From contig DP000238.1 in assembly GCA_000200715.1 (NCBI GenBank), positions 894,593 to 926,592 on the forward strand: a stretch of 32,000 bases of DNA, given 5' to 3'. Shown in pieces: positions 14,446 to 32,000 of this stretch. The notes under the pieces were generated by a model. It made no database searches, was not told where the DNA came from, and was given only the letters and a program-made list of their open reading frames with translations. Source of the DNA: Cenarchaeum symbiosum A. GTDB taxonomy: Archaea; Thermoproteota; Nitrososphaeria; Nitrososphaerales; Nitrosopumilaceae. Both the position numbers and the translations under genes were made by a program. Position 1 is the first letter of the stretch. Every line of letters begins with the position of its first letter.

Positions 14446-14739
14446 CTGACAGGTATAATTTCCCAAGGGCTGATCCCGGCAATCCTGCGTCGATATACCT
14501 GGCAGGCAGGATAGATTGTGATAATTACCGCGGTTCCGTGTCATCACAGCACAACAGATACACCATGGCAGGGGGCCACGGATCAGGCTAGAATGGTAGA
14601 GAACATCATGCAGAAGATACTGATCAAGATGTTGGTCTACAACCGGTTTGTGCTCATGCGCACATGATGTATGAAGGAGATGACACTACACTGACCTTTT
14701 AGCCGAGTTATGGAACAATTTACTCGGTATTTGTAATTT

Positions 14740-17552: not shown

Positions 17553-18194
17553 CTAGGTAGTGTCGCTTTGAAGATCGAACGTGTACGTTACATCCACCGT
17601 GTCGCCGCTCGCCACCTGGGTGGAGCTGACCTTGACGGCAGAGAATGCTGTTCCTACGGTGTCACAGTTCAGGCCCGTGGCGTCCTCGGGAACAGGAGTA
17701 GTACCATCTGTGTTGCATATTACGATGGATTCAATCGTCGCCAAGCCGACAAGGTGTGTGCCGCCCGTGAACGTGGCCGTCAGGATTCCCTGGCCCTGGG
17801 TTTCGGTATTTACGTTGGCACCTATGCAGGTTGACTCCGAAGGGGTGGCAAACGCTGTAGCAGGAGTAAGTGCTGAATCAGAAACTGTCTCTGTGATCTC
17901 CGCTTCGAGTACATCAGTGATGCATATCACGCTAGGCCTCTGGTTGTTCTGGATAGAATCAAAGATGGCATCCCTCATTATATCCTCACCGGTGTTCAGG
18001 ACCGTGTTGTGAACCGTCTGTGTTGCCAGCGTCTGGCCGTCGGCGCTCTTGTGGACCAGTTCCGCCATGCCATAGTACTGGACGCCCTCAGGGGTGCCAG
18101 ACACGCCTGTCGGGGTCATCATCAGGGCAAATACCGCGGCAAAGCCGATGGCTGCTGCCTTGTACGTCGTCTTTCTGGTTGTCCTTGAAATCAT
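17553..18194 (-). CDS. Small secreted hypothetical protein
   Basis: Sec-type signal peptide (MISRTTRKTTYKAAAIGFAAVFALMMTPTGVSG). The mature part is T/S/V-rich with 4 Cys. GATTATAAAC (18217-18226, minus strand) is centred about 27 nt upstream of the ATG. Confidence 0.65.
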   Translation of the reverse strand: MISRTTRKTTYKAAAIGFAAVFALMMTPTGVSGTPEGVQYYGMAELVHKSADGQTLATQTVHNTVLNTGEDIMRDAIFDSIQNNQRPSVICITDVLEAEITETVSDSALTPATAFATPSESTCIGANVNTETQGQGILTATFTGGTHLVGLATIESIVICNTDGTTPVPEDATGLNCDTVGTAFSAVKVSSTQVASGDTVDVTYTFDLQSDTT

Positions 18195-18306
18195 GGATTC
18201 ACTGCCCCGGTCTAGTGTTTATAATCTTTTTTACGGGCGATCTGCAAAATGGCAGGCGGGATAACGCACACCCGGATCCTGCCCGTCGGCATGAAAATAT
18301 ACTAAA

Positions 18307-21300
18307 ATGAACGCAGTAAGCACCGTAGTCATGGGAAGGATGTGGGCCCTGTTCATGCTGCCCGTGATCGCATCTATGATCGCATCTGTGATCGCCCCCG
18401 CATATGCCGACGCGGGGATCATCGGTGCTGCATACGAGCAGTCGACGGGCATCTTGGAGGTGTATTTTGACGGAATGGTAAACGCCTCCTCGATAGACCC
18501 GTCGGGGATTATCATCTGGGACAGCGCGGGCACATCGAGGACCGGCCTGTCAGAGTCCCAGCATCGGGGCCCCCCCGAGGGGCAGTCAGTGAGGCTGCAG
18601 CTCTCACTTGCCGAGAGGGCGGAGATATCAGGGTATGCATACCCGAGGGTGCACCTGACTGCTGCCGCATATTCTGGCGGGACACCCCCCCCGCCGTACG
18701 AGCTGCCGCGGACGGAATTTACGGGAACGCTCGACGTATCCACCTGGGATACAACTGTACGCGGCGTCACATTTTCTGACGACGGGCTCCAGGTGTTTAC
18801 GGTAAGCCACGGCGACACCATAGTCCGCTTTGTGCTCTCCGAGCCCTACGACATAAACACCGCGTCGCATGCGAGGACGTACGGCGGCAACATACAAGAC
18901 GAGGCGGGCAGCGGCATAAGGTTCTCGCCCGACGGGATGATCATGTTTTCATCCGACTGGGGCAAGGACGCCATCCACAGGTACGACCTAGTCTCGCCGT
19001 ACGAGCTCGACGGAAGGGTGCGCGGCGGCTCGTTCAATGTGAGGTCCCAGACCGGGACGCCCTTTGGCCTTGACTTTTCCGCAGACGGCAGCATCATGTT
19101 TGTGATCTCATCCAATCCGGGCACGCTCTTCCGGTACGACCTTGGAATCCCATACGACGTGAGGACAGCCGTGCTCGATAGCAGGCTCGACATATCGGGC
19201 GAGCTCACCGCCGGACACGGAGTAGACTTTGCCCCCGACGGCATGAGGTTTATAGCGGCGGGTTTTGAGTTTGAGGACGACGAAGCGCCCAGCACGGACA
19301 TAAACCAGTACGACATGTCAGAGCCGTACAACATAACGGGGGCGGTGCACTCGGGCGAGTACCTGCTGCCAGCTGCCCACGGCGGGTTTACCAACGATGT
19401 TGCGCTCTCAAAGGACGGCACGGTGCTCCTCCTGGCCGACCCCCAGTTCGACGCAATACAGCAGTTCGAGCTGGACGGGCCGTTTGACATACTGCCGTCT
19501 GCATTCTCCGGCGCGGCAGACGTCTCCGCGCAGGATGCAGCGCCCGCGGCCGTGCTGGTCAGCCCAGACGGCGCGGTCATGCTGGTCGCCGGCAATAACA
19601 CCGGCGCCATACACCTGTATGAACTGGCCGTGCCGTTTGACGTATCCACCGCGTCGCATACGTCAAGCATCGACGTCGGGGACAGGGTGGAGCACCCGTC
19701 GGCCCTGGCAGTCTCCAACAGCGGCCGGCGCGTTCTTGTGGCGGGGCCCGGCTCTGATGATATACACTGGTACGACAACACGAGCCCTGCCGGAAGATAC
19801 GAGCTGGCCGCGGCCGGGTATACAGGGGGAGCCGCCCTCCCTGCATATCCGGAGATAGCAGAGATAGCGGGCCTTACATTTGATGACAGCGGAAACTCTA
19901 TGTTCATACTTGCAGGGGGCGATGCCAACGCCAGGGACGGCGTCTACAAGTACAACCTGACTGCCCGGTTCGACCCGAGCACGGCATCATATGTCGGGGG
20001 CTTCAACCTTACATCCCTGAGGGAGCCAATGGAGAGGGAGCCCACAGGCATCGCCTTTACCAGCGGAGGCTCGGAGATGCTCATACTGGGAAGCGGGTCC
20101 GGCGCGATCCAGCGGCTTGCGCTAGATCCGCCGTTTTCCCTGTCTTCTCCACGGTACATCGGATACTATGATGTGGGGCGCGACGACTCATCTGCACAGG
20201 GGCTGGCGATGGCCCCGGACGGGGAGGCGGCATACGTGGCGGGAGCCAGCACGGGCAGGATAATCCAGTATAGTCCGGCTAGCGCCGATCTTCAGATATG
20301 CGGGACAGGGGAGGATGCAGCCGGCGGCATCTGCGTGCCTGCACTGAGGGCCCCCGGGATAACCTCCGCCCTGCTAGACTGGGACCGGGGTGCCGCCGAG
20401 GTGGCCTTTGATGCAAAGCTTGGCGAAATATCGCCCGGGAGCGTCAGGATAGCGGATGGCGCCTCCCTTGGCGGGGGCACGGACATTACAGATGGCGCAA
20501 CCACTGACGGCTCCACCGCGAGGTTCGTACTCGACGAGACAGGCAGGGCAGAGATATCAGGATACGCACAGCCCAGGCTCCACTTTACAGAGGGCGCCAT
20601 AAACCAGACGGATGGGCCTGCGTTTCCGCCCCAGCTTGGGCCGCCCATTATATCGTACAGGGGCCTTCTCAACATATCCGGGATACAGGAGGCCCCCTCG
20701 GCTGCCGCCATATCCATAGACGGGAGGAGCATGCTGGTATCCGGCGGAACGCCGGGCCTTGTGAGCCGCTTTGAGTTATCGGTCCCGTTTGATGTATCAA
20801 CTGCAGAGTTTGTGCCAGGCGGGTTTGCCGTGCCCGGGGGAGGGGGCCCGCCGGCGGGCCTGGCGCTATCCGGCGACGGCCTGCGCATGCTGGTCATGCG
20901 GCCCGGGGGAATGGTAAGCCAGTTTGATCTTGATTCGTCGTATGATCCGGCGGGGGCGTCATCTGCCGGGGGATACGACACGGGGATCTCCGGGGCAACA
21001 GGGATGGCGCTATCCCCCGGCGGCCGCGCCATGTACGTACTGGGTACCGACGGGGTGTCCAGGTTTGATCTTGCATCCCCCTTTGATGTAATAGGCGCAG
21101 CCGAGAGGCCGGGGCGGCTCCAGGTGGCGGATCTGGCGGAACCTGCAGGGCTTGCCGTCTCATCCGACGGCTCGGCCATTCTAGTCGGGGAGCTCCGGGG
21201 CCCGGGCATACACAGGTTTGCGCTAGAGGAGCCCTTTGAGCTTGCAGGCGCAGCCCAGGAAGGGGCGCTGTCCCTTGGAATACAGGGATCGGCATCCTCC

Positions 21301-24300
21301 TTTGCAATGGCCCCGGGAGGCATGCAGATGATAGTAACCGGCGCCGGGGGCGCGGTTCACATGTATGATATGCCCGAGCCGTTTGGGACGGGGCAGCCTG
21401 CGCACACGGGAACCCTGCTCATTTCAGGGCAGGACAACGTTCCCGTGGGTGCGGCCGTCTCTGGCGACGGGAGCATGCTGTTTGTCGCGGGCGACCAGAG
21501 GGATTTCATATACAGGTATGATCTTGCCGAGCCCTTTGATGTGGAGAGTGGTTCCCTGCACAGCAGCTTCGCCGTGGGGGACCAGGAGCGGCGCCCGACA
21601 GACGTGTCGTTCTCTGCCGACGGAACATCAATGTATGTGACGGGAAGCGGCATGGTGCACCAGTATGTACTGACAACCGGCTTTGACGTATCTTCTGCGT
21701 CATATCTGCGGTCCCTTGATGTATCCGCGCAGGACGGCGAGCCCACGGGCGTGCATATAGCGGCAGGCGGCTCACGCTTGTACATAACGGGGGACGCCTC
21801 GGATTCCGTGTATGGGTACGGCCTTACAGACGCCTTTGATATAAGCACGGCAGTGCATACAGGCTCGTTCAATATAGGGGCCTACGATGACTCCCCCCAC
21901 GCGGTCCGCGTATCTTCTGACGGCACAAGGATGATAGTAGCCGGCGGCCAGACTGGCGCCATTCACGTATACACCATGCCCGTCCCCTTTGAGATATATG
22001 CGGCGCACCACGAGGGCTTTTTCAACGTGCTTCCCCAGGAGGGAATACCGGCGGGCGTGGCCGTCTCGTCTGACGGCCTGCACATGTACGTTACGGGCCC
22101 GCTGTCGGATTCCATCCACCAGTACCACCTCGGGTCATACGATATACAGGCCTGCCCCGAGCCGCTGGGCGCGACGGGCGGCACATGCCTGCCGGGCTTT
22201 GCAGGGGTGATGGCAGTCTCCGCCGCGGCCGATACAGAACGGGGGATAATAGAGGCAATATTTGACGGGGCGATAGATGCATCGGCGGCAGACCCCTCAA
22301 GGATATACCTGAGGGACGGCGAGCTGCCCTCCGGCGGAATCCCGCTGGCAGGCTCCAGTGTTGAGACGTACGCGGATTCTGTCGTGCTGCGGCTGCAGTC
22401 AGATGGAATATCTGGCGCCTCTGAATATACGGATCCCCGCCTGCACTTTGGGGCGGGGGCGGTGCGCGGTGTAGACGGCAGCACGTACCCGCCCGCCTAC
22501 GAGCCATCCCGCATGGGATACGCGGGATCCTACGACTCAAGCCAGACAGAGGCGGCGCCTGCGGCAGTCGCGGCAAGCCCCGACGGCTCGAGGATATTCA
22601 TCCTGGGGACCGACGAAGACGCGATACTGCAGCTCGACCTGGCTGAACCGTACAATGTGACAGGCGGCAGCGTCACCACCTCCCACTATGTGGGGGTAGA
22701 AGAGACGGCCCCGTCGGGCCTCTCCTTTGGCGAGGACGGGATGTCGGCCTTTGTGACGGGCCGGTCGTCGGATGCTGTGCACAAGTACGAGCTGTTAGAG
22801 CCGTACGACGTGCAGGAGGTGCGAAACACAGTGTCGAGCTTTTCAGTTGCCGAACAGGAAGGCACCGTACAGGGCGTATACGTTACACCTGACGGGACGC
22901 ATGTATTCATAGTCGGCACCGACTCCGGCGCTGTGCACAGGTATACGCTTGGTGCGCCGTTTGATCCGGATGCTGCGGTACATTCGGGCTCGTTTAATGT
23001 AAGCGGGCAGGCAGGCAACCCCACGGACCTGTTCTTTGCGCCCGACGGGCACAGGATGTACGTTCTCAACAAGGGCGACGTGTCGGGGGAGGTGCACAGG
23101 TACCTGCTTGCCCGGCCGTTTGACATAACAGAGCCCGTGTATACGGGCAACTTTACCGTCGACGAGGATGCGGCGCCAAGGGGCGCGGCACTCTCGTCTG
23201 GCGGCCTGCACTTTTACATGGTGGGCACGGGATCTGATATGCTCCACCAGTATTCGCTGGGCACGCTGCAAGTAGACGTGTGCCCCGCGGGCCAGACGCC
23301 CGGCGACGGGTGCACTGCTGCATCGTCTGCCGCCGGCCCGCGCATAACATCCGCACTGCTCGAAGACGGCGGCACGTTGGAGATAATCCTTGACAGAGCT
23401 GCAGTGATAAACGCCTCAGGAATGCGCATAACCGACGGAGCCGCGTTCTCCGGCGGGATCTCACTGGCGGGCTCGAATGTATCGACGGACGGCTCCACCT
23501 CGAGATTTGAGCTGCCACCCGGGGCTGCAGAGGTGTTCGGGTATGCAGAGCCCAGGCTGCATTTGGAAGATGGCGCCGTGGCCGGCGGCACATATCCGCC
23601 GAGGGCGCCTCCGGGTACGGCGTATTCGGGGATGCTCGGCGTCACCCTGCAGGGCCCGTCTGCCGCGGCCCTATCTATAGACGGGACAAGGATGGTGCTG
23701 CTCGACGGCCCCGTGGACGTGCTCCACATGTATGGTTTAGGGGTCCCGCATGACGTATCGACTGCCTACCCCATGGATAGCACGCTAGACGTGACTGTTC
23801 CCACCCTGGGCGACGCGGATTCCATATCGATAGACGCGCAAGGCGTGCATTTTGCAGCCGGCGGCCTGCTCATGTACGTATCGGGATCCGGCGGAATATT
23901 CCAGTACAGGCTGGACGCCCCGCACGATGTGGCAGGCGCCGCCTATACGGGCAGGTTTGACGCCGGTGAAGTACCGGACGGGCGCCACGCAGTGCTCTCG
24001 CCTGACGGCTCCCGGATGTACGTTATAGGCCAGGGCGGCATATTCCAGTATTCACTGGGATCTCCCTTTGATGTATCAACTGCGATATACGATATATCGT
24101 ACGATACAGGGTTCGCCCCGGCGGGCGCGGACTTTTCTGAAGACGGCACGCGCATGGCGGCATCCGATGGAACAGGGATCCAGTGGTACGACCTTGCAGT
24201 GCCATTTGACATATCCACGGCGTCACCTGGCGGCGGATTTGATACAACAGGCGGGATTGGGGGCATAGAGATCTCGTCGGACGGCCGGCGCGTGCTTGCC

Positions 24301-27300
24301 GTGCTGCCAGGCTCCGCAGAGGTCATCCAGTACGACCTGCCTTCACCGTACAGGCCGGGGGGCTCCGCCCTTGCAGGATCCCTCGCGGTATCGGGGGTAG
24401 ACGACAGGCCAAAGGGCGTCACACTCTCGCCGGATGGGACAGTCATGTACATGACGGGGACAGAAGAGAGCGACGTCTACCAGTACGGGCTGTCCAGGCC
24501 CTTTGATGTGGATAGCGCCGTACTGCAGGCAACGCTGAACCTGCTCCCGGTGGACGGATACACCGCGCCCGACGATGTGGCCATCTCGCCCGACGGAAGC
24601 ACAATGTACATAGCCGAGGACGGGGGCAGGGTGCAGCAGTACAGCCTGCCAACACCCTTTGAGATAACGGGCGCCATGCGCGAGCATATAATGGATGCAA
24701 GCTCCATTGACAACAGCATCCAGGGAGTGGCCGTCTCGCCCGACGGCACAAGGCTGTTCATATCCGGGAATGAGACTGACTCCATACATGAATACAGCCT
24801 TACCACCCCGTTCATGCTGAGCAGCTCGATATACGACGGATCCCTGGGGCTGGCCGGCCACACCACAGACCCCTCGTCGGTGGCGTTCTCTGCAGACGGG
24901 ACTGTAATGGTAGTCGCAGGGCACGACGGCGGCCTTATCCACTGGTATGCGCTTGCAGCCCCGTTTGAGATCTCCTCTTCCATATACTCGGGGGCTCTTG
25001 TTACCATAACCGAGGATGCCGCCCCCCAGGGCGTTGCCCTCTCGTCTGACGGGCTGTGGACGTATGTAACAGGGGATTCCGGCAGCATCAGCCAGTATTC
25101 GCTGGCCTCGCGGCCAGTGGTGGAATGCCCGGCAGGAGCTGCAGCCTCCGGCGGCCAGTGCCTTCCGGGCTTTTCTATTCCAAGCCTCGTATCTGCAGCC
25201 ATGCAGACTACAGGGAACCGCCTCGAGATGCTCTTTGATGAAGAGATCGACGCCTCGACTGCCGACGCCGCCCAGATCAACATCAGGGACGGCGCGGGGG
25301 CGGCAGGCGGGATAAACCTTGACGGATCCCGCGTGAGGGACTCTGCGCCGGACGTGCTCAAGCTGTCCCTGACCAGGGGCGTTACGGATACTGTGTCCGG
25401 GTACGCGGATCCGCGGCTGCACTTTGGCGCGCGGACAGTGCATGGAGCAGACGGGTCCGTATTCCCCCCGAACTTTGATCCCGGCGGGCTGATGTTCATG
25501 GGCTCGCTTGACGTCTCCGCACAGGAGAGGCAGCCCAACGGGGCAAGGGCTGCCGCAGACGGCTCTAAAATCTACGTGGTGGGCGGCATCTCTGATTCTG
25601 TCCACCAGTACGACCTGGCTGCGCCGGGCAACCTGACTGGCGGATCCCACTCCGGCTCGCTGAATATTGGGGGCAGCAGCACAAACCCCACAGATGTCGA
25701 GCTCTCGCCAGACGGGGAGATGGCCTTTGTACTGACCAGGGCAGGAAACGTAAACAGGTACGACCTTGGCAGCCCCTTTGACATAGGGACCGCCGTGTCA
25801 CATTCCTCCTTGGTAGTGGGCGACAGAGTGCCGGCGCCCCTGGGGATGTCGTTCGGGGTGGGCGGCATGAGGATGTTCATCTCGGGCAATTCGCCAGATA
25901 TGATACACAGGTACGACCTGCCCGCGCCATACGAAGTATCTGCAGCTGTATACATAGATTCGCTGCACGTCGGCGATGATATCGCCGAGCCCGTGTCCAT
26001 AGCCTTCTCGGAAGACGGCTCAAGGCTGCTGGTAACCGATAGGATCCCGTCTTCTATACACACGTACCAGCTGGGCTCGCCATTCGACCTGACGCCGGCT
26101 GCTCTCACGGGATCGTTTGATGCAGACGGGCAGGACGGGTTTTTGCGCTCTGCATCATTTTCTGACGGCGGCCTGTGGATGTACCTGGCGTGGGCGGATG
26201 ACGGAACCATCCACCAGTACAGGGCGGAGCCCCCTGCGGTTGAAATCTGCCAGGGCACCATGCTGGCGACCGGCGGGGCCTGCATGGAAAGGTACGTTCC
26301 GGGGCCCTCCATACAATCCACCGCATTTGGCGGCAGCTCGCTGGAGATTGCATTTGATTCACCCATCAACCATTCATCTGTAGACACATCCAGGATCCGC
26401 GTTGCAGACGGGACAGAGGGCACAAGCCTGGCGGGGGCGGAGGTCTCGGAGGGGCCATCCCCCGGGGTGGTCGTGCTGGATCTTGGCCCCCGGGAGAGGG
26501 ACGCTATATCGGGATACAGAAACCCGGTCATTCACTTTGGCATAGGCGCCATACACGATATGGACGGGCGGCCGTACCCGCGCCCGTTCTCGACGGACCA
26601 GCCGGTCCCCCTGTCATCTGCAGAGGCCTCCCTGCGGAGAGTGCAAGATATCCACATGACGCCAGACGGCTTGTCGGTCTTTGTATCCGGGACAGAGTCC
26701 GGGGCCCAGTTTGGCGAAGGGCACGTGGTCCGGCGATACGACCTGTCCGAGCCCTACGACATGAGCACCGCCGTGGAGAATAGAACAGGCCAGTTTGAGT
26801 TTGTCGAAGACGAGCTGCAGGTCAACAGCCTTGCCTTCTCGGAGAACGGCCTGCGGATGTACGTCTCCGGGTCGCCAGACGAGCTGGACCCGGACCGTGG
26901 AGGGCTGTACCAGTACGATCTTAACGGGCCGTATCTTGCCCACACGGCCCTGCTTGCCGGCAGCACGCTCCCCACAGCCGGCGGGGAGACAAGATACCTC
27001 AGCGGGATCCACTTTAGAGAAGACGGCAGCAGCCTCTACGGGACAAGCGGCAGCGAGGTGCTCCAGTTTTCACTAGATACGCCCCATGACGTGACCACTA
27101 TGGGGCCCGCGCGCGCGGTGCTCATGATCGGCGGGGATCACGGTCTCGACGACGTGTCTATTTCCGAGGACGGGACAATCATGCACCTGACGGATTTGAA
27201 CACGATAAAGACCTACGAGCTGCGCAGCCCGTTCAACATCGGGAGCGCCTCAGCCATAGGGTCCGCTGTGCACCCGAGCACCGGCACGTGTTATGACAGC

Positions 27301-30300
27301 ATAGACTTTGCAGAGAGGGGATCGAGGGCCGTGGCCATGACCTGCACGGGCACAATGCATGAGCTCGACGTGCCCGTGCCGTACAATGCAGCCCTGCCCC
27401 CGCTGTCAGGCACCAAGGATCTGAACTTCTTTGCGGGATCCGAATCCCAGGGGCTCGCATTTAGCGATGACGGTACCATGATGTATATAATAACGTCAAA
27501 CGCCCCGGACGGCAACGATGGAATCCGCCAGTACCGGCTGGGGACTCCGTTTGAGCCCGGTACGTTAAATGCGGCAGGGATATTCGACGCGCTGATACAA
27601 GATACGCGCCCCCGCGGGATGGCGTTCTCGGCCGACGGCTCCATCATGCTCATGCTGGGCGAGCAGAGGGACAGGGTGTACCGGTACGACCTGGGCACGC
27701 CGTTTGACGTCACCACGGCAGTTTATGCAAACTCCAACTACAGCATACGCAGCACGGAGAACCAGCCCGTGGCCATGGATGTCGCGCTCGGCGGCACCCA
27801 GCTGTACGTGCTGGGCGGCGGCTCGAGCCCCAGCCTGCACCTGTTTGAGATGTCCGAGCCGTACGACCCGACTACAATGAGTCCGGCGGGCAGCACAGCA
27901 TACGACTACGACCAGAGGGTGCCCCTCAGGGGGGGCGACGGGGGAAGGCCAACTGGCGTCTTTGTGGCAGAGGACGGAGAAGACATCTTTGTATCGGGGG
28001 ACGAGCTCGATGCTGTAATCCACTTTATGGTGCCCGTGCCGTCGGATGTCACCACGATGGTGCCCGCAGGCGGGGTCTACGCGGGCACGGGCATAGTGTA
28101 CGTGGACGAGGATGACGCGCGCACAGCGGGCGTCTCGCTGTCGGAAGACGGCACAAGGCTGTTCGTCTTTGATAGATCCGACGGAATCAAGCAGTACCTG
28201 CTGAATACGCACCCGCTGCAAGTGTGCGAAGAGGGCATGATTCCGGAAGACGGCATCTGTGTGCCCGAGGCGGAGCCTGAGCTGCTCTCGGCCGTTCTCG
28301 ACATGGAGGGGAGGCTCGAGGTATTGTTTGATACGGAGATTGACGTCCCGGCAGGCATAGAGGGGGCGTATGTGAGCGGCGCAGGCATGTTCCAGCCGGG
28401 CGCCGACCTGTCGGGGGCGAGGGCCGAGGGCGGGGGCCCGCGCGTGCTGCGGCTGATTCTGGACCAAGACGAGCTGGATGCAGTGTATGCACTCGGGGAT
28501 TCGCCCCTACTCCACATTGGCGGGGCGGTAAACAGCACGGGTGGAGCGGCATTTCCCGATGTGTACTCGGCAGCCGCGCATGCGTTGCTCGGCTCTGCAC
28601 AGGCAATCCCGCCTGCCAGTCCCCCCGGAAACGACGCGCCAGGCGGGGCGGCAGTCTCACACGATGGCAGGTGGCTGTTTGTTTCCAGCAGGGGCGGCCC
28701 GGCCATAGACAGGTATGAGATGTCGGTGCCCTTTGACGTTGGCACCGCATCCCACGCAGATACGCTGGATATTGTCGGGTCCGACAGGAATCCCGAGGGC
28801 GTGGCAGTAGGGATGGACGGCTCGCGCCTGCTCGTTGTCGGCCACCAGAGGGACGCCATACGCATGTTCAGCATGACAGATTACGACCTGGGCACGGCGG
28901 CCCTCATCCAGTCGCTCAGTGTAAAAGAACAGGTGGATAACCCCTCGGGGATCTCCGTCTCGCCCGACGGCAGGGCGTTCTTTATAGTGGGATCCAACGG
29001 GGACACAGTCCACAGGTATGGAGCCATCGAGCCCTGGGACTTTGAGACTGCGGCACACGCAGAATCAATGAATACAAGCGACAGGACGAGCCTCCTGACG
29101 GGCGTATACGTTTCGCCCGACGGGCACAGCATGCTGCTATCTGACAGGGGCCACGACACGGTCCACGCATACCACCTGCCCGTCCCGTTCAGTTTGGCAG
29201 GCGCCGCATATACGGGGCAGATAGACCTCCAGGGGATAGGCAACAACATCCACGATGTGACGTTTGGCGCAGGCGGCCTGTACATGTACGTTGTAGACAG
29301 GCAGAGCGGCGCCGTATACCAGTACTCTGCAGGGGCTGCAGAACTTGTATTATGTGAAGAAGGCGAGAGTGCGGCGGCAGGCTCTTGCGCGCCTGCACGC
29401 CCTCCTACCACGCCCGCAATACTGAATGCGGTAATGGACGGGGACGGCGGGGCCCTCGAGGTCACATTCAACGGGACGGTGGATATAGAATCCGTCAGGG
29501 ATTCGGCGGTGCGCGTATCTGACGGCGGCTCGCCGGGGGGCCTTGGCGGCGGGCTGATGACGGTAGTCGATTCCAGCACCATCCGGTTCCAGATGGGCGG
29601 AAACGATGCGCGCGCCATATCACAGTATGTGGAACCGCGCCTGCTGCTAGAAGGAGCAGCCATGAACGTATCCGGAGTTATTGTGCCCGGGCCCTTTGAG
29701 CTGCCGCTGCCGCGCCGCGACTCCGGCACAACCATCGATGGGGCGGCAGGTGTGGCCCTCTCGTCTGACGGCCGCACGATGCTGGCCGCGGATACCCAGG
29801 GCGGCAGGATACTAGAATATACACTGCAGGATCCGCATAACGTGAGCACGGCAGTGCCGGAGGATATACTCGACGTCTCGGGCAGGGCCGCGCCCTCGGG
29901 GCTCGAGCTCTCTGCAGACGGGACTGTCCTGTTTGTATCGAATAGCGGCTCGGGGACCATAGACAGATACCTGCTGGATAATCCGTACAATGTGACATCC
30001 GCGGCATACGCGGACAGCGCAGAGTCCGGCAGTGGCGAGCCCGGCGGGATGATATTCTCTGCCGACGGGACCAGCATGTACCTGCTCGATGCAGATGATG
30101 GCGGCGTGCGCGAATATTCCATATCGCCCCCGTACGGCTTTGACTCTGTAAGCAGTGTAATGCTCCACGAAATAGAGGGCGCGGCCAACCTTACAGGCAT
30201 GACGTTCTCGCCAGACGGAACGGCCATCTTTATCTCGGGAGACGCAGGAATATTCCGGTACGAGCTGCCCGCAGAGTACTCGCCTGCCGGGGCGGTTCTG

Positions 30301-32000
30301 TCCGGCAGGTTTACGCCGGCGGCCCCCGCGGGTGCTCCCGCCGATATAGAGATCTCAGCCGACGGGCTGCACCTTGTTGTGGCAGGCGCAGACGGCTCCA
30401 TACACGGGTACGCGCTCGACAGACAGTCCGAGCTGGGGGCACGCGGCGTGCCCCGCGCGCTGAATCTCGGAGGGGGGTCGGTCCCCGCGGGCGTGGCGTT
30501 CTCTGGGAATGGCTCCATAGCATACGTGGCAGATTCCGGCAGCGGCGAGGTTCGCGCGTACGGCCTTGCCTCCCCGTACGACATACAGGGGGCCGCATCG
30601 ATCTTCAGCCTGAGCGTTCCTGCAGTGCCGGCAGGTGTCGCGCTATCGCCTGACGGCCAGAGGATGCTAGTGCCCGAGCCCGGCGGCATTCTTCAGTATG
30701 TGCTGGGCACGCCCTACGACCTGTCGTCTGCCGTGCTCGGGGTCAGTTTTGTCCCGGACGAGGAGCCGGATCCCCGCGGGGTCGCGTTTACACCCGACGG
30801 CCTGCGGATGTTTGTATCAGGGCCGGAATTCATCCACAGATACGGGCTTGCAGAGCCGTACAATGTAGACGACCCCGCATACGCGGGATCCGACGCGTCC
30901 CCCATTCCGTCAACCGAGGGGGTGGCGTTCTCTGATCACGGCTATAGGATGTTTGTCGCCGGCGGGGGCGCTGTCAGCGCCTACTCCCTGGATGATCCGT
31001 TTGCCCCGTCCACTGCCATCCACGACGGGTCGTTTGACCTCGGGGACGGGGCGGACCCGCGGGGCGTGGCATTCTCTGCGGACGGCAGCAGGATGTTCGT
31101 TCCCGGCGGCGGAAATGAATTCGTGCTACAATATGCAGTGGGAACGCACCGCATAGACGTGTGCCCCGACGGGATGTCGGTCTTTGAGGGCGGCTGCACG
31201 ATGACGGGGCCCGCGGGCGGGCCGCGCCTCGTATCTGCAGCCATGGACCCCCGCACCGGGGAGCTCGAGATGTTCTTTGATAGGGCAATGGACCCGGGCC
31301 TATCCACGGGGATTGTGCAGATACGGGACGGTGTATCGCCTGCCGGCGGAACCACTCTTGCGGGCAGCTTCTCGGCAGGGCCGCGGCCCGAGGTATTACG
31401 CATCACGCTTGAGAACGATTCCAGGGCAGAGGCTGCAGAATTTGCAGACCCCCGGCTGTACTTTGGAAATGATGCACTGCAGGGCTTGGACGGGGGGTTC
31501 TTCCCTGCCGCCTTTGACGCGCCGCGCACGGAATTCACGGGAGTGCTCGACGTCTCCACATGGGATACAACGGTACGCGGCGTCACATTTTCGCACGACG
31601 GGCTCCAGGTGTTCACGGTAAGCCACGGCGACACCATAGTCCGCTTTGTGCTCTCCGAGCCCTACGACATAAACACCGCGTCGCATGCGAGGACGTACGG
31701 CGGCAACATACAAGACGAGGCGGGCAGCGGCATAAGGTTCTCGTCTGACGGGATGATCATGTTCACATCCGACTGGGGCAAGGACGCCATCCACAGGTAC
31801 GACCTTGTCTCGCCATACGAGCTCGACGGAAGGGTGCGCGGCGGCTCGTTCAATGTGAGGTCCCAGACCGGGACGCCCTTTGGCCTTGACTTTTCCGCAG
31901 ACGGCAGCATCATGTTTGTGATCTCATCCAATCCGGGCACGCTCTTCCGGTACGACCTTGGAATTCCATACGACGTGAGGTCCGCCGTGCTCGATAGCAG
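18307..32000 (+). CDS. Giant secreted modular beta-propeller surface protein, 5' portion (>=4,564 codons, no stop within the window)
   Basis: This gene is not in the supplied track. Frame +1 was read codon by codon from 18301 to 31998. Stops occur at 18262 and 18292, the first ATG is at 18307 (a second is at 18331), and there is no stop afterwards. It has a signal peptide (MGRMWALFMLPVIASMIASVIAPAYA). It then has 8 complete modules, each an Ig-like domain ending in P-R-[LV]-H-[FL] followed by 10 or 5 blades of ~45 aa ([FVL]S.DG...[MLI][FYLV]V.G......I..Y.L..P[FY]D). The blade motif matches the giant CDS at 2..6259. Confidence 0.9.
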   Translation, partial: MNAVSTVVMGRMWALFMLPVIASMIASVIAPAYADAGIIGAAYEQSTGILEVYFDGMVNASSIDPSGIIIWDSAGTSRTGLSESQHRGPPEGQSVRLQLSLAERAEISGYAYPRVHLTAAAYSGGTPPPPYELPRTEFTGTLDVSTWDTTVRGVTFSDDGLQVFTVSHGDTIVRFVLSEPYDINTASHARTYGGNIQDEAGSGIRFSPDGMIMFSSDWGKDAIHRYDLVSPYELDGRVRGGSFNVRSQTGTPFGLDFSADGSIMFVISSNPGTLFRYDLGIPYDVRTAVLDSRLDISGELTAGHGVDFAPDGMRFIAAGFEFEDDEAPSTDINQYDMSEPYNITGAVHSGEYLLPAAHGGFTNDVALSKDGTVLLLADPQFDAIQQFELDGPFDILPSAFSGAADVSAQDAAPAAVLVSPDGAVMLVAGNNTGAIHLYELAVPFDVSTASHTSSIDVGDRVEHPSALAVSNSGRRVLVAGPGSDDIHWYDNTSPAGRYELAAAGYTGGAALPAYPEIAEIAGLTFDDSGNSMFILAGGDANARDGVYKYNLTARFDPSTASYVGGFNLTSLREPMEREPTGIAFTSGGSEMLILGSGSGAIQRLALDPPFSLSSPRYIGYYDVGRDDSSAQGLAMAPDGEAAYVAGASTGRIIQYSPASADLQICGTGEDAAGGICVPALRAPGITSALLDWDRGAAEVAFDAKLGEISPGSVRIADGASLGGGTDITDGATTDGSTARFVLDETGRAEISGYAQPRLHFTEGAINQTDGPAFPPQLGPPIISYRGLLNISGIQEAPSAAAISIDGRSMLVSGGTPGLVSRFELSVPFDVSTAEFVPGGFAVPGGGGPPAGLALSGDGLRMLVMRPGGMVSQFDLDSSYDPAGASSAGGYDTGISGATGMALSPGGRAMYVLGTDGVSRFDLASPFDVIGAAERPGRLQVADLAEPAGLAVSSDGSAILVGELRGPGIHRFALEEPFELAGAAQEGALSLGIQGSASSFAMAPGGMQMIVTGAGGAVHMYDMPEPFGTGQPAHTGTLLISGQDNVPVGAAVSGDGSMLFVAGDQRDFIYRYDLAEPFDVESGSLHSSFAVGDQERRPTDVSFSADGTSMYVTGSGMVHQYVLTTGFDVSSASYLRSLDVSAQDGEPTGVHIAAGGSRLYITGDASDSVYGYGLTDAFDISTAVHTGSFNIGAYDDSPHAVRVSSDGTRMIVAGGQTGAIHVYTMPVPFEIYAAHHEGFFNVLPQEGIPAGVAVSSDGLHMYVTGPLSDSIHQYHLGSYDIQACPEPLGATGGTCLPGFAGVMAVSAAADTERGIIEAIFDGAIDASAADPSRIYLRDGELPSGGIPLAGSSVETYADSVVLRLQSDGISGASEYTDPRLHFGAGAVRGVDGSTYPPAYEPSRMGYAGSYDSSQTEAAPAAVAASPDGSRIFILGTDEDAILQLDLAEPYNVTGGSVTTSHYVGVEETAPSGLSFGEDGMSAFVTGRSSDAVHKYELLEPYDVQEVRNTVSSFSVAEQEGTVQGVYVTPDGTHVFIVGTDSGAVHRYTLGAPFDPDAAVHSGSFNVSGQAGNPTDLFFAPDGHRMYVLNKGDVSGEVHRYLLARPFDITEPVYTGNFTVDEDAAPRGAALSSGGLHFYMVGTGSDMLHQYSLGTLQVDVCPAGQTPGDGCTAASSAAGPRITSALLEDGGTLEIILDRAAVINASGMRITDGAAFSGGISLAGSNVSTDGSTSRFELPPGAAEVFGYAEPRLHLEDGAVAGGTYPPRAPPGTAYSGMLGVTLQGPSAAALSIDGTRMVLLDGPVDVLHMYGLGVPHDVSTAYPMDSTLDVTVPTLGDADSISIDAQGVHFAAGGLLMYVSGSGGIFQYRLDAPHDVAGAAYTGRFDAGEVPDGRHAVLSPDGSRMYVIGQGGIFQYSLGSPFDVSTAIYDISYDTGFAPAGADFSEDGTRMAASDGTGIQWYDLAVPFDISTASPGGGFDTTGGIGGIEISSDGRRVLAVLPGSAEVIQYDLPSPYRPGGSALAGSLAVSGVDDRPKGVTLSPDGTVMYMTGTEESDVYQYGLSRPFDVDSAVLQATLNLLPVDGYTAPDDVAISPDGSTMYIAEDGGRVQQYSLPTPFEITGAMREHIMDASSIDNSIQGVAVSPDGTRLFISGNETDSIHEYSLTTPFMLSSSIYDGSLGLAGHTTDPSSVAFSADGTVMVVAGHDGGLIHWYALAAPFEISSSIYSGALVTITEDAAPQGVALSSDGLWTYVTGDSGSISQYSLASRPVVECPAGAAASGGQCLPGFSIPSLVSAAMQTTGNRLEMLFDEEIDASTADAAQINIRDGAGAAGGINLDGSRVRDSAPDVLKLSLTRGVTDTVSGYADPRLHFGARTVHGADGSVFPPNFDPGGLMFMGSLDVSAQERQPNGARAAADGSKIYVVGGISDSVHQYDLAAPGNLTGGSHSGSLNIGGSSTNPTDVELSPDGEMAFVLTRAGNVNRYDLGSPFDIGTAVSHSSLVVGDRVPAPLGMSFGVGGMRMFISGNSPDMIHRYDLPAPYEVSAAVYIDSLHVGDDIAEPVSIAFSEDGSRLLVTDRIPSSIHTYQLGSPFDLTPAALTGSFDADGQDGFLRSASFSDGGLWMYLAWADDGTIHQYRAEPPAVEICQGTMLATGGACMERYVPGPSIQSTAFGGSSLEIAFDSPINHSSVDTSRIRVADGTEGTSLAGAEVSEGPSPGVVVLDLGPRERDAISGYRNPVIHFGIGAIHDMDGRPYPRPFSTDQPVPLSSAEASLRRVQDIHMTPDGLSVFVSGTESGAQFGEGHVVRRYDLSEPYDMSTAVENRTGQFEFVEDELQVNSLAFSENGLRMYVSGSPDELDPDRGGLYQYDLNGPYLAHTALLAGSTLPTAGGETRYLSGIHFREDGSSLYGTSGSEVLQFSLDTPHDVTTMGPARAVLMIGGDHGLDDVSISEDGTIMHLTDLNTIKTYELRSPFNIGSASAIGSAVHPSTGTCYDSIDFAERGSRAVAMTCTGTMHELDVPVPYNAALPPLSGTKDLNFFAGSESQGLAFSDDGTMMYIITSNAPDGNDGIRQYRLGTPFEPGTLNAAGIFDALIQDTRPRGMAFSADGSIMLMLGEQRDRVYRYDLGTPFDVTTAVYANSNYSIRSTENQPVAMDVALGGTQLYVLGGGSSPSLHLFEMSEPYDPTTMSPAGSTAYDYDQRVPLRGGDGGRPTGVFVAEDGEDIFVSGDELDAVIHFMVPVPSDVTTMVPAGGVYAGTGIVYVDEDDARTAGVSLSEDGTRLFVFDRSDGIKQYLLNTHPLQVCEEGMIPEDGICVPEAEPELLSAVLDMEGRLEVLFDTEIDVPAGIEGAYVSGAGMFQPGADLSGARAEGGGPRVLRLILDQDELDAVYALGDSPLLHIGGAVNSTGGAAFPDVYSAAAHALLGSAQAIPPASPPGNDAPGGAAVSHDGRWLFVSSRGGPAIDRYEMSVPFDVGTASHADTLDIVGSDRNPEGVAVGMDGSRLLVVGHQRDAIRMFSMTDYDLGTAALIQSLSVKEQVDNPSGISVSPDGRAFFIVGSNGDTVHRYGAIEPWDFETAAHAESMNTSDRTSLLTGVYVSPDGHSMLLSDRGHDTVHAYHLPVPFSLAGAAYTGQIDLQGIGNNIHDVTFGAGGLYMYVVDRQSGAVYQYSAGAAELVLCEEGESAAAGSCAPARPPTTPAILNAVMDGDGGALEVTFNGTVDIESVRDSAVRVSDGGSPGGLGGGLMTVVDSSTIRFQMGGNDARAISQYVEPRLLLEGAAMNVSGVIVPGPFELPLPRRDSGTTIDGAAGVALSSDGRTMLAADTQGGRILEYTLQDPHNVSTAVPEDILDVSGRAAPSGLELSADGTVLFVSNSGSGTIDRYLLDNPYNVTSAAYADSAESGSGEPGGMIFSADGTSMYLLDADDGGVREYSISPPYGFDSVSSVMLHEIEGAANLTGMTFSPDGTAIFISGDAGIFRYELPAEYSPAGAVLSGRFTPAAPAGAPADIEISADGLHLVVAGADGSIHGYALDRQSELGARGVPRALNLGGGSVPAGVAFSGNGSIAYVADSGSGEVRAYGLASPYDIQGAASIFSLSVPAVPAGVALSPDGQRMLVPEPGGILQYVLGTPYDLSSAVLGVSFVPDEEPDPRGVAFTPDGLRMFVSGPEFIHRYGLAEPYNVDDPAYAGSDASPIPSTEGVAFSDHGYRMFVAGGGAVSAYSLDDPFAPSTAIHDGSFDLGDGADPRGVAFSADGSRMFVPGGGNEFVLQYAVGTHRIDVCPDGMSVFEGGCTMTGPAGGPRLVSAAMDPRTGELEMFFDRAMDPGLSTGIVQIRDGVSPAGGTTLAGSFSAGPRPEVLRITLENDSRAEAAEFADPRLYFGNDALQGLDGGFFPAAFDAPRTEFTGVLDVSTWDTTVRGVTFSHDGLQVFTVSHGDTIVRFVLSEPYDINTASHARTYGGNIQDEAGSGIRFSSDGMIMFTSDWGKDAIHRYDLVSPYELDGRVRGGSFNVRSQTGTPFGLDFSADGSIMFVISSNPGTLFRYDLGIPYDVRSAVLDS
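18705..19184 (+). repeat. Copy 1 of a 480-bp intragenic direct repeat (partner at 31521-32000)
   Basis: Manual alignment at an offset of exactly 12,816 nt (4,272 codons) gives about 19 mismatches in 480 nt, with perfect runs of more than 100 nt. Confidence 0.9.
31521..32000 (+). repeat. Copy 2 of the 480-bp intragenic direct repeat (partner at 18705-19184); runs off the window edge
   Basis: Same alignment as for copy 1. Similarity starts exactly at the codons for PRTEFTG.LDVSTWD, which is the junction between the Ig-like domain and the first blade. Confidence 0.9.

What the first reader, a model, noticed from the sequence alone, without database searches (positions are those of the whole stretch)
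18307..32000. A 13.7-kb unterminated + strand ORF that the supplied ORF track omits
Every 60-nt line of the listing begins in frame +1, so I split lines 18301-31981 into codons one at a time. After the stops at 18262-18264 and 18292-18294 the first ATG is at 18307. No TAA, TAG or TGA occurs in that frame up to 31998, which is 4,564 codons. The track appears to report only ORFs closed by a stop, so this gene is invisible there. In its place the track shows a chain of minus-strand ORFs (18231..18821, 18846..19928, 20292..21323, 24343..25650, 25572..26531, 28881..30689 and others). Their S/P/A/R-rich, motif-free translations are the antisense image of the real repeats. None of the listed + strand ORFs in this span is in frame +1, which fits one continuous occupied frame. 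The product has a Sec-type signal peptide and the same blade motif as the giant CDS ending at 6259. Taking the track at face value would mis-annotate 43% of the window.
Basis: seen in the sequence. Interest (0 to 1): 0.85.

Follow-up and report, generated by a model that had tools for sequence, protein, structure and literature searches.

The report
Giant archaeal propeller-repeat surface protein gene
The 13.7-kb open frame is real: it is the start of a giant gene of the sponge-dwelling archaeon Cenarchaeum symbiosum, and it encodes a secreted chain of five-bladed propeller domains that most likely acts as a sticky surface fibre; it went unlisted only because the gene runs off the end of the window.

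Summary
Frame +1 has no stop from 18295 to 31998. That is 4,564 codons from the ATG at 18307, with a chance probability of about 1e-61. Codon-position GC and codon usage mark +1 as the coding frame, and the minus-strand ORFs are shadows.

The window comes from Cenarchaeum symbiosum A. The gene sits directly after CENSYa_0896.

The product has a Sec signal peptide followed by at least 9 modules. Each module has three parts:
- a ~95-aa beta-sandwich adaptor with no Pfam match;
- 5 or 10 propeller blades, 68 in the window, giving one or two five-bladed YVTN-like propellers (AlphaFold pLDDT 90);
- a Cys-X9-10-Cys loop.

The protein is very acidic and has only 0.3% lysine. Module 9's propeller is 96% identical in DNA to module 1's, at a spacing of 12,816 nt, and the gene continues past the window.

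Two paralogues are already deposited as 'hypothetical protein': CENSYa_0849 (5,246 aa) and CENSYa_0917 (5,278 aa). The upstream giant CDS is a third paralogue. The blade family has more than 8,000 cluster representatives, and blade counts come mostly in multiples of five. Its best structural matches are tail-fibre-like proteins of marine phages.

The most likely function is a multivalent surface adhesin or recognition fibre. The omission from the ORF track is a trivial artefact. This is a new member of a known kind and of moderate interest.

The parts
18195..18306 (+). Intergenic region shared with the divergent gene CENSYa_0896. It contains two A/T-rich TATA-like boxes, TTTATAAT at about 18218-18226 and AAAATATACTAAAA at 18294-18307.
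   Evidence: Read from the sequence. Promoter function is an inference and was not tested. The second box lies about 27 nt before a possible near-leaderless start at the second ATG, 18331.
18307..18408 (+). Start codon and Sec-type signal peptide (aa 1-34, MNAVSTVVMGRMWALFMLPVIASMIASVIAPAYA|DAG). An alternative start is Met9 at 18331.
   Evidence: Translation. It is the only hydrophobic stretch of the protein. Paralogues CENSYa_0849 and CENSYa_0917 have equivalent N-termini ending AHA|A and AYA|E.
18418..20334 (+). Module 1: adaptor beta-sandwich, 10 blades and a Cys loop (C665/C676).
   Evidence: Blade HMM, Cys map, module alignments A1 and A2.
20335..22188 (+). Module 2: adaptor, 10 blades and a Cys loop (C1283/C1294).
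   Evidence: AlphaFold model: pLDDT 80, pTM 0.72, 40 blade strands. Its best PDB matches are tandem double-propeller proteins.
22189..23313 (+). Module 3: adaptor, 5 blades and a Cys loop (C1659/C1669).
   Evidence: AlphaFold model: pLDDT 90, pTM 0.88, with a beta-sandwich at residues 9-94 and 5 four-stranded blades. Foldseek searches.
23314..25161 (+). Module 4: adaptor, 10 blades and a Cys loop (C2274/C2285).
25162..26283 (+). Module 5: adaptor, 5 blades and a Cys loop (C2648/C2659).
26284..28260 (+). Module 6: adaptor, 10 blades and a Cys loop (C3307/C3318). The HMM found 9 blades; the fifth was identified by eye and carries an extra Cys pair at aa 2995/3013 (nt 27289/27343).
28261..29388 (+). 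Module 7: adaptor, 5 blades and a Cys loop (C3683/C3694).
29389..31197 (+). Module 8: adaptor, 10 blades and a Cys loop (C4286/C4297).
31198..31998 (+). Module 9, cut by the window end: adaptor plus the first 3 blades. The ORF continues beyond 32000.
18704..19184 (+). Copy 1 of a 481-nt near-identical internal repeat (first three blades of module 1).
   Evidence: 96% identical to 31520-32000. Identity starts sharply at the adaptor/propeller junction. The differences comprise 11 synonymous and 5 non-synonymous codons.
31520..32000 (+). Copy 2 of the repeat (first three blades of module 9), 12,816 nt downstream. It runs to the window edge, so its true extent is unknown.
2..6259 (+). Paralogous giant CDS (3' part, 2,085 codons): one adaptor, 22 blades, other repeats, and a C-terminal cassette (poly-Gly, 2-Cys domain, Pro/Glu-rich spacer, FFRSLFG tail).
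   Evidence: The cassette is 43% identical over 255 aa to the C-terminus of CENSYa_0917.
18231..30689 (-). Chain of antisense 'shadow' ORFs that are not genes: 18231-18821, 18846-19928, 20292-21323, 24343-25650, 25572-26531, 27565-28467, 28077-28874, 28881-30689.
   Evidence: Their codon statistics are worse than those of frame +1 over the same spans. Four that were tested are absent from the protein collection.

Best explanation
Positions 18307-32000 are the first 13.7 kb of one genuine, very long protein-coding gene of Cenarchaeum symbiosum A. It is the locus immediately after CENSYa_0896; by the numbering it should be CENSYa_0897, but this is not verified.

Shown:
- The product begins with a Sec signal peptide.
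- It then consists of at least nine modules in the order 10,10,5,10,5,10,5,10,(>=3) blades.
- Each module is a ~95-residue beta-sandwich adaptor, then one five-bladed YVTN-like beta-propeller, or ten blades that are most likely two such propellers, then a short Cys-X9-10-Cys loop.
- The protein has no internal membrane segment, is strongly acidic (12.5% D+E against 4.8% K+R) and almost lacks lysine.

Inferred:
- After export the chain forms a beads-on-a-string fibre of the order of 100 nm on the outside of the cell.
- It is held by a C-terminal cassette like that of its paralogues (poly-Gly, a small 2-Cys domain, an acidic Pro-rich spacer and an FFRSLFG tail).
- The propellers are the ligand-binding units, as they appear to be in the homologous marine-phage tail-fibre-like proteins.
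- The fibre therefore acts as a multivalent adhesin or recognition structure that keeps the archaeon attached to, or tolerated in, the sponge matrix.

The gene evolves by module duplication or gene conversion: the propeller of module 9 is a 96% copy of that of module 1.
For: Real gene:
- No stop in 4,568 codons against 32-179 stops in the other frames, P about 1e-61.
- Codon-position GC and codon usage match the neighbouring genes only in frame +1.
- The two copies of the internal repeat differ at 11 synonymous and 5 non-synonymous codons.

Source organism:
- PurC, CENSYa_0881, CENSYa_0896 and three more window genes are exact matches to C. symbiosum A proteins on a 2,045,086-bp contig.

Architecture:
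- Cys pairs lie at regular positions, and the blade HMM gives the blade census.
- Nine adaptors are detected with an adaptor HMM.
- Module 3 has a high-confidence AlphaFold model: pLDDT 90, pTM 0.88, a beta-sandwich plus 5 blades of 4 strands.
- Module 2 models with 10 blades.

Five blades as the folding unit:
- Blade counts in relatives are mostly multiples of five (65, 80, 50, 70, 35, 40, 45, 20, 30, 15), and the 'adaptor + 5 blades' unit is iterated in metagenome proteins.

Relatives:
- The best match among solved structures by sequence profile is the Methanosarcina S-layer YVTN propeller 1L0Q, E 8e-19.
- Paralogues CENSYa_0849 and CENSYa_0917 have the same architecture and signal peptides.

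Binding role:
- The best structural matches are marine phage proteins, with E 5e-28 to 2e-24, TMq 0.65-0.67 and 18-28% identity.
- tblastn hits Lentibacter phage ICBM2 gp51, which lies between two tail-assembly-chaperone genes next to a tail protein, as well as Roseobacter and Synechococcus phage genes including a 'baseplate wedge' protein.
- Metagenome relatives P0006 and P0012 carry blocks of five blades in proteins that read like tail fibres.

Context from the literature:
- Expanded surface proteins of sponge thaumarchaea, including C. symbiosum, have been proposed to serve adhesion or recognition in the sponge matrix (PMC6790972).
Against: - No expression, localisation or binding data exist.
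- The 3' end, and so the anchor and the total length, lies outside the window. It could not be retrieved.
- The protein itself was not found in either protein library. I could not confirm how, or whether, the public record annotates it.
- The phage homologues are themselves uncharacterised, so 'binding module' is an inference from their genomic position.
- Pfam's only hits are lactonase/SGL-type propellers, which nominally suggest an enzyme.
- That the 10-blade modules form two separate five-bladed rings is inferred. I could not inspect the model coordinates.
- The 96% internal repeat could in principle reflect an assembly join between strain variants in this population-derived genome.
Confidence: 0.6

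Rival explanations
1. The protein is a passive protective or physico-chemical coat rather than a specific adhesin. In this view it is a long, highly acidic, lysine-poor, protease-resistant layer outside the S-layer. Such a layer could concentrate ammonium, shield the cell from sponge phagocytosis or proteases, or act as a decoy for phages whose tail fibres carry the same propeller.
For: The composition is extreme: 12.5% acidic residues and 0.3% lysine, against 3.4-8% lysine in neighbouring cytoplasmic proteins. Acidic thaumarchaeal S-layers have been linked to ammonium acquisition (PMC6790972). The propeller is homologous to those of phage tail-fibre-like proteins.
Against: Modules are only 25-39% identical to one another yet keep a well-folded propeller. 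That pattern fits maintained binding surfaces better than bulk filler. There is no mucin-like low-complexity sequence in this ORF.
Confidence: 0.2
2. The protein is a structural component of the cell envelope (S-layer or an S-layer-associated lattice), like the YVTN-propeller S-layer protein of Methanosarcina.
For: The best match among solved structures by sequence profile is the Methanosarcina mazei surface-layer YVTN propeller, 1L0Q, E 8e-19. An expanded set of S-layer proteins is reported for sponge thaumarchaea.
Against: The propellers are five-bladed, not seven-bladed. There are no PKD domains. A protein of more than 4,500 aa with 13 or more propellers in series is not a lattice-forming unit. 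The organism has at least four such paralogues of differing architecture.
Confidence: 0.1
3. The protein is an array of extracellular enzymes (lactonase/SMP-30-like), for example for quorum quenching or sugar-lactone hydrolysis.
For: Pfam SGL (120.7 bits) and Lactonase (114.2 bits) exceed their gathering scores for the whole protein. Relatives are auto-annotated 'sugar lactone lactonase YvrE'.
Against: The scores come from summed partial blade matches. The best single stretch covers profile positions 133-210 of 246 for SGL and 153-275 of 344 for Lactonase. The fold is five-bladed, whereas those enzymes are 6- or 7-bladed. The residues invariant across modules are Gly, Pro and Asp of structural type. 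No NCBIfam enzyme model matches.
Confidence: 0.05
4. It is not one intact functional gene. It could be a pseudogene remnant, or partly an assembly artefact caused by repeats. For example, the 96% copy at 31520-32000 could be a mis-join to the gene's own 5' region from a strain variant.
For: The genome was assembled from a natural population (own knowledge of the 2006 project). There is a 481-nt 96% repeat running into the window edge. Paralogue CENSYa_0849 ends abnormally inside an adaptor, which suggests that frameshifts or errors occur in this family.
Against: A 13.7-kb frame without a single stop cannot persist in a pseudogene. The repeat begins exactly at an adaptor/propeller domain junction, with identity rising gradually from 0.77 to 1.0. 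It is preceded in frame by a normal Cys loop and a distinct adaptor. This looks like domain duplication or gene conversion rather than a random mis-join. The ratio of 11 synonymous to 5 non-synonymous codon differences indicates that both copies are under selection.
Confidence: 0.05

Closest known systems
C. symbiosum A paralogues CENSYa_0849 (ABK77482.1, 5,246 aa) and CENSYa_0917 (ABK77549.1, 5,278 aa), both deposited as 'hypothetical protein', and the giant CDS ending at window position 6259
   Same: They share the signal peptide ending in AxA, the same adaptor domain, and blades mostly in blocks of 5, 10 or 15. Cys loops follow some blocks. All have very low lysine, 0.2-0.5%.
   Different: They are only 26-34% identical to this ORF, with a different order and number of modules. 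Whether this ORF ends with the C-terminal FFRSLFG cassette seen in CENSYa_0917 and the upstream CDS cannot be seen in the window.
YVTN beta-propeller of the Methanosarcina mazei surface-layer protein (PDB 1L0Q)
   Same: It is an archaeal extracellular propeller and the best match among solved structures by sequence profile (E 7.9e-19). It ranks 2 by Foldseek.
   Different: It has seven blades of about 40 residues followed by PKD domains. Here the units have five blades of about 50-60 residues, preceded by an unclassified beta-sandwich. The TM-score is only 0.39. No NCBIfam YVTN-repeat hit was found.
Uncharacterised five-bladed propeller proteins of marine phages, e.g. Lentibacter phage vB_LenP_ICBM2 gp51 / A0A3G2YRG7, Roseobacter phages CRP-9, CRP-13 and CRP-2, and Synechococcus phages S-SKS1 and S-SCSM2R
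   Same: They have the same five-bladed propeller. Foldseek gives E 5e-28 to 2e-24 and TMq 0.65-0.67, with rmsd 3.9 A over 277 columns for ICBM2. tblastn gives 31% identity at E 2e-28.
   Different: They are single or few propellers in small or medium-sized proteins encoded among tail genes. They have no adaptor/Cys-loop module and no signal peptide. They are virion parts rather than cell-surface proteins.
SMP-30/gluconolactonase (PF08450) and 7-bladed lactonase (PF10282) families
   Same: There is blade-level sequence similarity, and the Pfam whole-protein scores are above threshold.
   Different: Matches cover only part of the profiles. The blade number differs, and there is no evidence of an active site. 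This is similarity at superfamily level only.
Giant prokaryotic surface or adhesion proteins such as halomucin of Haloquadratum walsbyi (own knowledge, not tested here)
   Same: They are very long, secreted, highly repetitive and acidic, and are presumed to form an extracellular layer or fibre.
   Different: The repeat chemistry is unrelated (mucin-like or Ig-like repeats against propellers). No homology was tested or implied.

Membership tests
YVTN beta-propeller repeat family (archaeal S-layer type, PDB 1L0Q) | Significant sequence similarity to a bona fide YVTN propeller | tested here: met
   A profile of the module alignment A1 hits 1L0Q_A at E 7.9e-19, the best hit in the PDB.
YVTN beta-propeller repeat family (archaeal S-layer type, PDB 1L0Q) | Match to the curated ~40-residue YVTN repeat model used by NCBI | tested here: not met
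   There are no NCBIfam hits at E<=1 for module 3. Module 2 gives only weak unrelated hits.
YVTN beta-propeller repeat family (archaeal S-layer type, PDB 1L0Q) | Seven-bladed ring, followed by PKD domains | tested here: not met
   AlphaFold gives five four-stranded blades. The TM-score to 1L0Q is 0.39. Blade counts in the family are mostly multiples of five. There is no PKD hit in Pfam.
SMP-30/gluconolactonase/LRE (PF08450) and Lactonase (PF10282) | Pfam whole-protein score above the gathering cut-off | tested here: met
   120.7 bits against 26.3, and 114.2 bits against 21.7.
SMP-30/gluconolactonase/LRE (PF08450) and Lactonase (PF10282) | One contiguous match over the whole 6-/7-bladed catalytic domain | tested here: not met
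   The best stretches cover profile positions 133-210 of 246 and 153-275 of 344 only. The units are five-bladed.
SMP-30/gluconolactonase/LRE (PF08450) and Lactonase (PF10282) | Conserved metal-binding catalytic residues | not tested
   No residue-level comparison was made. The invariant columns among modules are mostly Gly, Pro and Asp, which look structural.
C. symbiosum giant adaptor-propeller proteins (CENSYa_0849 / CENSYa_0917 / upstream CDS) | N-terminal Sec signal peptide with an AxA cleavage motif | tested here: met
   aa 1-34 end in AYA|D and form the only hydrophobic segment. The paralogues are alike.
C. symbiosum giant adaptor-propeller proteins (CENSYa_0849 / CENSYa_0917 / upstream CDS) | Iterated modules of adaptor beta-sandwich plus blades in blocks of five, some closed by a Cys loop | tested here: met
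   The architecture strings obtained with the adaptor and blade HMMs are the same in kind in G2, P0179 and P0182.
C. symbiosum giant adaptor-propeller proteins (CENSYa_0849 / CENSYa_0917 / upstream CDS) | C-terminal cassette: poly-Gly, 2-Cys domain, Pro/Glu-rich spacer, FFRSLFG tail | not testable with these tools
   The 3' end of the ORF is outside the window, and the source contig could not be fetched. The cassette is present in the upstream CDS and in CENSYa_0917.
Five-bladed propeller of marine phage tail-fibre-like proteins | Same fold and detectable sequence similarity | tested here: met
   Foldseek against BFVD gives TMq 0.65-0.67 with E down to 5e-28. tblastn gives 31% identity at E 2e-28.
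Five-bladed propeller of marine phage tail-fibre-like proteins | Encoded among phage tail or baseplate genes | tested here: not met
   The neighbours here are cellular genes: PurC, an ArsR regulator, an esterase and a restriction-modification set. The phage homologue lies between tail assembly chaperone genes.

The most novel reading that the evidence does not exclude
The ~50-60-residue blade that always assembles in fives may be an unnamed ligand-binding (lectin-like) domain family. It would be shared by giant surface proteins of symbiotic and marine microbes and by the tail fibres of marine phages.

In C. symbiosum it would be deployed in at least four giant paralogues that mediate sponge-archaeon recognition.

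The gene in this window may also carry a 12.8-kb super-repeat, which would make it longer than 8,500 codons and one of the largest archaeal genes.
Probability: 0.25. Interest if true: 0.6.

Novelty: new member of a known kind. Interest (0 to 1): 0.35.

Why it matters
For annotation, any pipeline that lists only closed ORFs will replace 43% of this window with spurious antisense ORFs. Partial ORFs at sequence ends must therefore be allowed.

For biology, C. symbiosum is the classic uncultivated sponge archaeon, and how it attaches to and is tolerated by its host is unknown. A family of at least four secreted proteins, each probably of about 5,000 residues or more and built from five-bladed propellers, is an obvious candidate for that interface.

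The link to marine phage tail-fibre-like proteins gives a testable hypothesis, namely that the propeller is a binding module. It also provides small, well-folding units, such as module 3 at 375 aa, that could be expressed and tested.

Tried and rejected
Extending the gene past the window failed:
- An exact 41-mer from the window end gave no match in genome contigs.
- A protein-pattern scan of genome contigs found no relative.
- A metagenome-contig scan found only one distant relative, at 24% identity.
- The look-up of encoding contigs found no record for three window genes, although the proteins themselves are in the collection.

The ORF's own product was not found:
- The word-indexed search gave at best 37% identity.
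- The exhaustive HMMER search gave at best 42% identity.
- I therefore could not read its deposited length or name. The assignment to CENSYa_0897 rests only on the numbering after CENSYa_0896.

Libraries and models that gave nothing:
- The adaptor domain has no Pfam match at E<=10 beyond noise.
- There was no useful NCBIfam hit.
- A search with the C-terminal cassette of the upstream CDS returned nothing, although direct BLASTP shows 43% identity to the C-terminus of CENSYa_0917.

Other dead ends:
- Literature searches for CENSYa locus tags, giant genes and halomucin found no description of these genes. The 2006 genome paper is not held.
- There are no Rfam families or tRNAs in the window.

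Readings rejected:
- A chance ORF.
- Minus-strand genes.
- A single ten-bladed ring of the sortilin type. The top PDB matches of the 10-blade model are tandem double propellers, and family blade counts are mostly multiples of five.
Full report
**Observation.** Frame +1 carries TAA at 18262-18264 and TGA at 18292-18294, and the first ATG follows at 18307. From 18295 to 31998 there is no stop codon: 4,568 codons, or 4,564 from the ATG. In the same span the other five frames contain 32 to 179 stops. With the local base composition a stop is expected at 3.0% of codons, so the probability of an open frame of this length is about 1e-61. The longest open run in 200 shuffles was 993 nt. The frame runs off the window. 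The ORF lister states that it does not report such ORFs, and in this span it shows only minus-strand ORFs of 200 aa or more.

**Which strand codes.** GC content by codon position in frame +1 is 0.63/0.51/0.72. This is the same pattern as in PurC, the esterase and the other ordinary genes of the window. The antisense ORFs show scrambled patterns. I built a codon-usage log-likelihood from eight ordinary genes of the window. It gives +0.29 bits per codon for +1 and at most 0.01 for the other five frames. Each antisense ORF also scores lower than frame +1 over the same coordinates. Four antisense ORFs (28881-30689, 20292-21323, 25572-26531, 28077-28874) are absent, by exact look-up, from a collection of 15 billion proteins. 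That collection does contain six neighbouring genes of the same genome.

**Source.** PurC (11691-12512, minus strand) is 100% identical to the protein of Cenarchaeum symbiosum A on a 2,045,086-bp contig. Exact look-ups identify 7356-8315(-) as CENSYa_0881 and 17553-18194(-) as CENSYa_0896 (ABK77528.1), along with three further genes. The giant ORF starts 112 nt from CENSYa_0896 and is divergently oriented. By the numbering it should be the next locus, CENSYa_0897, but I could not verify this. Its product was returned by neither protein search (best identities 37% and 42%), and the source contig could not be fetched.

**Anatomy of the product.**
- *Signal peptide.* Residues 1-34 (MNAVSTVVMGRMWALFMLPVIASMIASVIAPAYA|DAG) read as a Sec signal peptide. 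They are the only hydrophobic stretch in the protein. Met9 (18331) is an alternative start, and an A/T-rich box at 18294-18307 would suit a near-leaderless transcript from it. That last point is an inference.
- *Modules.* Cys pairs spaced 9-10 residues apart recur at aa 665/676, 1283/1294, 1659/1669, 2274/2285, 2648/2659, 3307/3318, 3683/3694 and 4286/4297. After each pair comes a ~95-residue domain ending in a P-R-L-H-F-like motif. Then come propeller blades.
- *Blades.* An iterated blade HMM, plus one blade identified by eye, gives 10, 10, 5, 10, 5, 10, 5, 10 and at least 3 blades in the nine modules. That is 68 blades in the window.
- *Divergence.* Modules are only 25-39% identical to one another.
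- *Structure of a short module.* AlphaFold on module 3, using the other modules as its alignment, gives a confident model: pLDDT 90, pTM 0.88. It shows a beta-sandwich at residues 9-94 followed by five four-stranded blades.
- *Structure of a long module.* Module 2 gives 40 blade strands at pLDDT 80 and pTM 0.72. Its best PDB matches are proteins with two tandem propellers, not ten-bladed rings.
- *Adaptor.* It matches no Pfam family.
- *Composition.* Acidic residues make up 12.5% and K+R 4.8%. Lysine is only 0.3%, against 3.4-8% in the neighbouring cytoplasmic proteins.

**Internal repeat.** From 18704 (the first blade of module 1) to 19184, the DNA is 96% identical to 31520-32000 (the first blades of module 9), at a spacing of 12,816 nt. 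Upstream of the junction, identity falls to background. The differences comprise 11 synonymous and 5 non-synonymous codons. The onset lies exactly at the adaptor/propeller boundary. It is preceded in frame by a normal Cys loop and a different adaptor. This argues for a domain-level duplication or gene conversion rather than a mis-assembly, although only long reads can exclude the latter. The repeat runs into the window edge. The gene therefore continues, and it may contain a higher-order repeat.

**Relatives.**
- *Size of the family.* An exhaustive HMMER search of 1.84 billion cluster representatives finds 8,299 relatives at E<=1e-3 and 1,609 at E<=1e-30. Many are 3,000-6,246 residues long.
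- *Paralogues.* Two of the top hits are C. symbiosum A paralogues, both deposited as 'hypothetical protein': CENSYa_0849 (5,246 aa) and CENSYa_0917 (5,278 aa). The giant CDS that ends at 6259 is a further paralogue and is identical to neither.
- *Shared architecture.* With my adaptor and blade HMMs, the paralogues show the same scheme: adaptor, then blades mostly in blocks of 5, 10 or 15, sometimes followed by a Cys loop. Metagenome proteins P0183, P0185 and P0186 iterate 'adaptor + 5 blades'.
- *Blade counts.* Most relatives have blade counts that are multiples of five: 65, 80, 50, 70, 35, 40, 45, 20, 30 and 15. Five blades is therefore the folding unit of this family.

**Comparison with known families.**
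- *Pfam.* It reports only generic propeller families. SGL (120.7 bits) and Lactonase (114.2 bits) are above threshold, but through summed partial matches that never cover a whole enzyme domain.
- *NCBIfam.* It gives nothing useful.
- *Solved structures by sequence.* The best match is the YVTN propeller of the Methanosarcina mazei surface-layer protein, 1L0Q, at E 7.9e-19.
- *Solved structures by fold.* PDB matches reach only TM about 0.4, because they are seven-bladed.
- *Phage proteins.* Predicted structures of marine phage proteins match far better, with E 5e-28 to 2e-24 and TMq 0.65-0.67, which corresponds to the whole five-bladed ring. tblastn against phage genomes hits Lentibacter phage ICBM2, Roseobacter phages CRP-9, CRP-13, CRP-2 and CRP-738, and Synechococcus phages. 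One of these hits is annotated as a baseplate wedge protein.
- *Phage gene context.* In Lentibacter phage ICBM2 the gene lies between two tail-assembly-chaperone genes, next to a tail protein. This is the usual position of a tail fibre or receptor-binding protein.
- *Metagenome relatives.* P0006 and P0012 also read like tail fibres with blocks of five blades.

**Mechanism.**
- *Shown:* a Sec signal; no membrane segment; a chain of adaptors and five-bladed propellers; an acidic composition; paralogues with the same plan.
- *Inferred:* the protein is exported and forms an extended fibre of the order of 100 nm, a rough estimate from 13 or more propellers and 9 adaptors. It would be tethered by a C-terminal cassette like that of its paralogues. 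The upstream CDS and CENSYa_0917 share such a cassette, 43% identical over 255 aa and ending in FFRSLFG. The propellers would bind ligands, as their phage homologues presumably do. That makes the protein a multivalent adhesin or recognition fibre in the sponge matrix.
- *Literature context:* this agrees with the suggestion that expanded surface proteins of sponge thaumarchaea, C. symbiosum included, serve adhesion or surface recognition (PMC6790972).
- *Confidence:* about 0.97 that this is a real gene, about 0.9 for the module architecture, and about 0.5 for the adhesin function.
- *Rivals:* a passive acidic protective coat or phage decoy, an S-layer component, an enzyme array, and a pseudogene or assembly artefact. 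Each is set out with its evidence in the rival explanations.

**Novelty and interest.** The omission from the ORF track is a trivial, documented artefact. The gene lies in a genome published in 2006 whose paralogues are deposited, though only as hypothetical proteins, and I found no paper that describes them. The kind of object, a giant repetitive propeller-based archaeal surface protein, is known. This is a new, uncharacterised member with a distinctive architecture of five-bladed units with adaptors and Cys loops. The link to marine phage tail-fibre-like proteins and the strict rule of five are worth noting but do not change the category. I score interest at 0.35.

Noticed in passing
window 5471-6259 (C-terminus of the upstream giant CDS): A conserved C-terminal cassette: a run of 13 Gly (5471-5509), a ~150-aa domain with two Cys starting at LGYSASF (5528), a Pro/Glu/Gln-rich acidic spacer (~5999-6200), and a short tail ending FFRSLFGFGS (FFRSLFG at 6227-6247). 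It is 43% identical over 255 aa to the C-terminus of CENSYa_0917, which ends in the same FFRSLFG. It has no Pfam or NCBIfam match. It may be an unrecognised anchoring or sorting signal.
   Followed up: partly
window 2-6259 and 18307-31998: Both giant proteins are almost free of lysine (0.4% and 0.3%) while keeping 4.5-4.7% arginine. Neighbouring cytoplasmic proteins have 3.4-8% lysine. The C. symbiosum paralogues share this (0.2-0.5%), whereas most metagenome relatives have 1-4%.
   Followed up: partly
window 12714-16324: A low-G+C island (36-50% against about 58-62% elsewhere) carries a restriction-modification set: two adjacent N4/N6 DNA methyltransferases (12714-13676 and 13666-14445, + strand), a weak Tsp45I-like restriction enzyme (14740-15468, - strand) and a weak Eco57I-like methylase (15365-16324, - strand). 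It is probably horizontally acquired.
   Followed up: partly
window 11026-11690 (between the ArsR-type regulator gene and the 3' end of purC): A 665-nt non-coding stretch contains three tandem copies of a 62-nt unit (11422-11612). It also holds three copies of a palindromic GCTACTATAT...ATAG(C/T)GGTAG motif, at 11102, 11262 and 11302. There is no Rfam match. The motifs could be operator sites for the adjacent regulator, or an unknown RNA.
   Followed up: partly
window 1115-1279: The upstream giant CDS contains three tandem 24-residue repeats (PTVSDMGAVPLPGGTAHNITDAD...) in a non-propeller region rich in N-x-S/T sequons. That protein has 36 sequons in 2,085 aa, against 27 in 4,564 aa for the ORF under study.
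   Followed up: no
protein P0179 = CENSYa_0849 (not in the window): Its C-terminus breaks off inside an adaptor domain into an Arg-rich tail with no similarity (…RGWYLTAGRLPTYGAGSFPRRWRHRLQF…). This suggests a frameshift or sequencing error in the deposited gene, so this paralogue may be longer than annotated.
   Followed up: no
window 27289-27345 (module 6): Module 6 carries an extra Cys pair (aa 2995 and 3013) inside its fifth blade. The blade HMM missed that blade. This is the only departure from the otherwise regular Cys-loop pattern.
   Followed up: no
window 18192-18331: The TATA-like box TTTATAAT (18218-18226) lies about 28 nt upstream of the ATG of the divergent gene CENSYa_0896, which fits a leaderless transcript for that gene. 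A second A/T-rich box (18294-18307) lies about 27 nt before position ~18326, so the giant gene may really start at the second ATG (18331).
   Followed up: no
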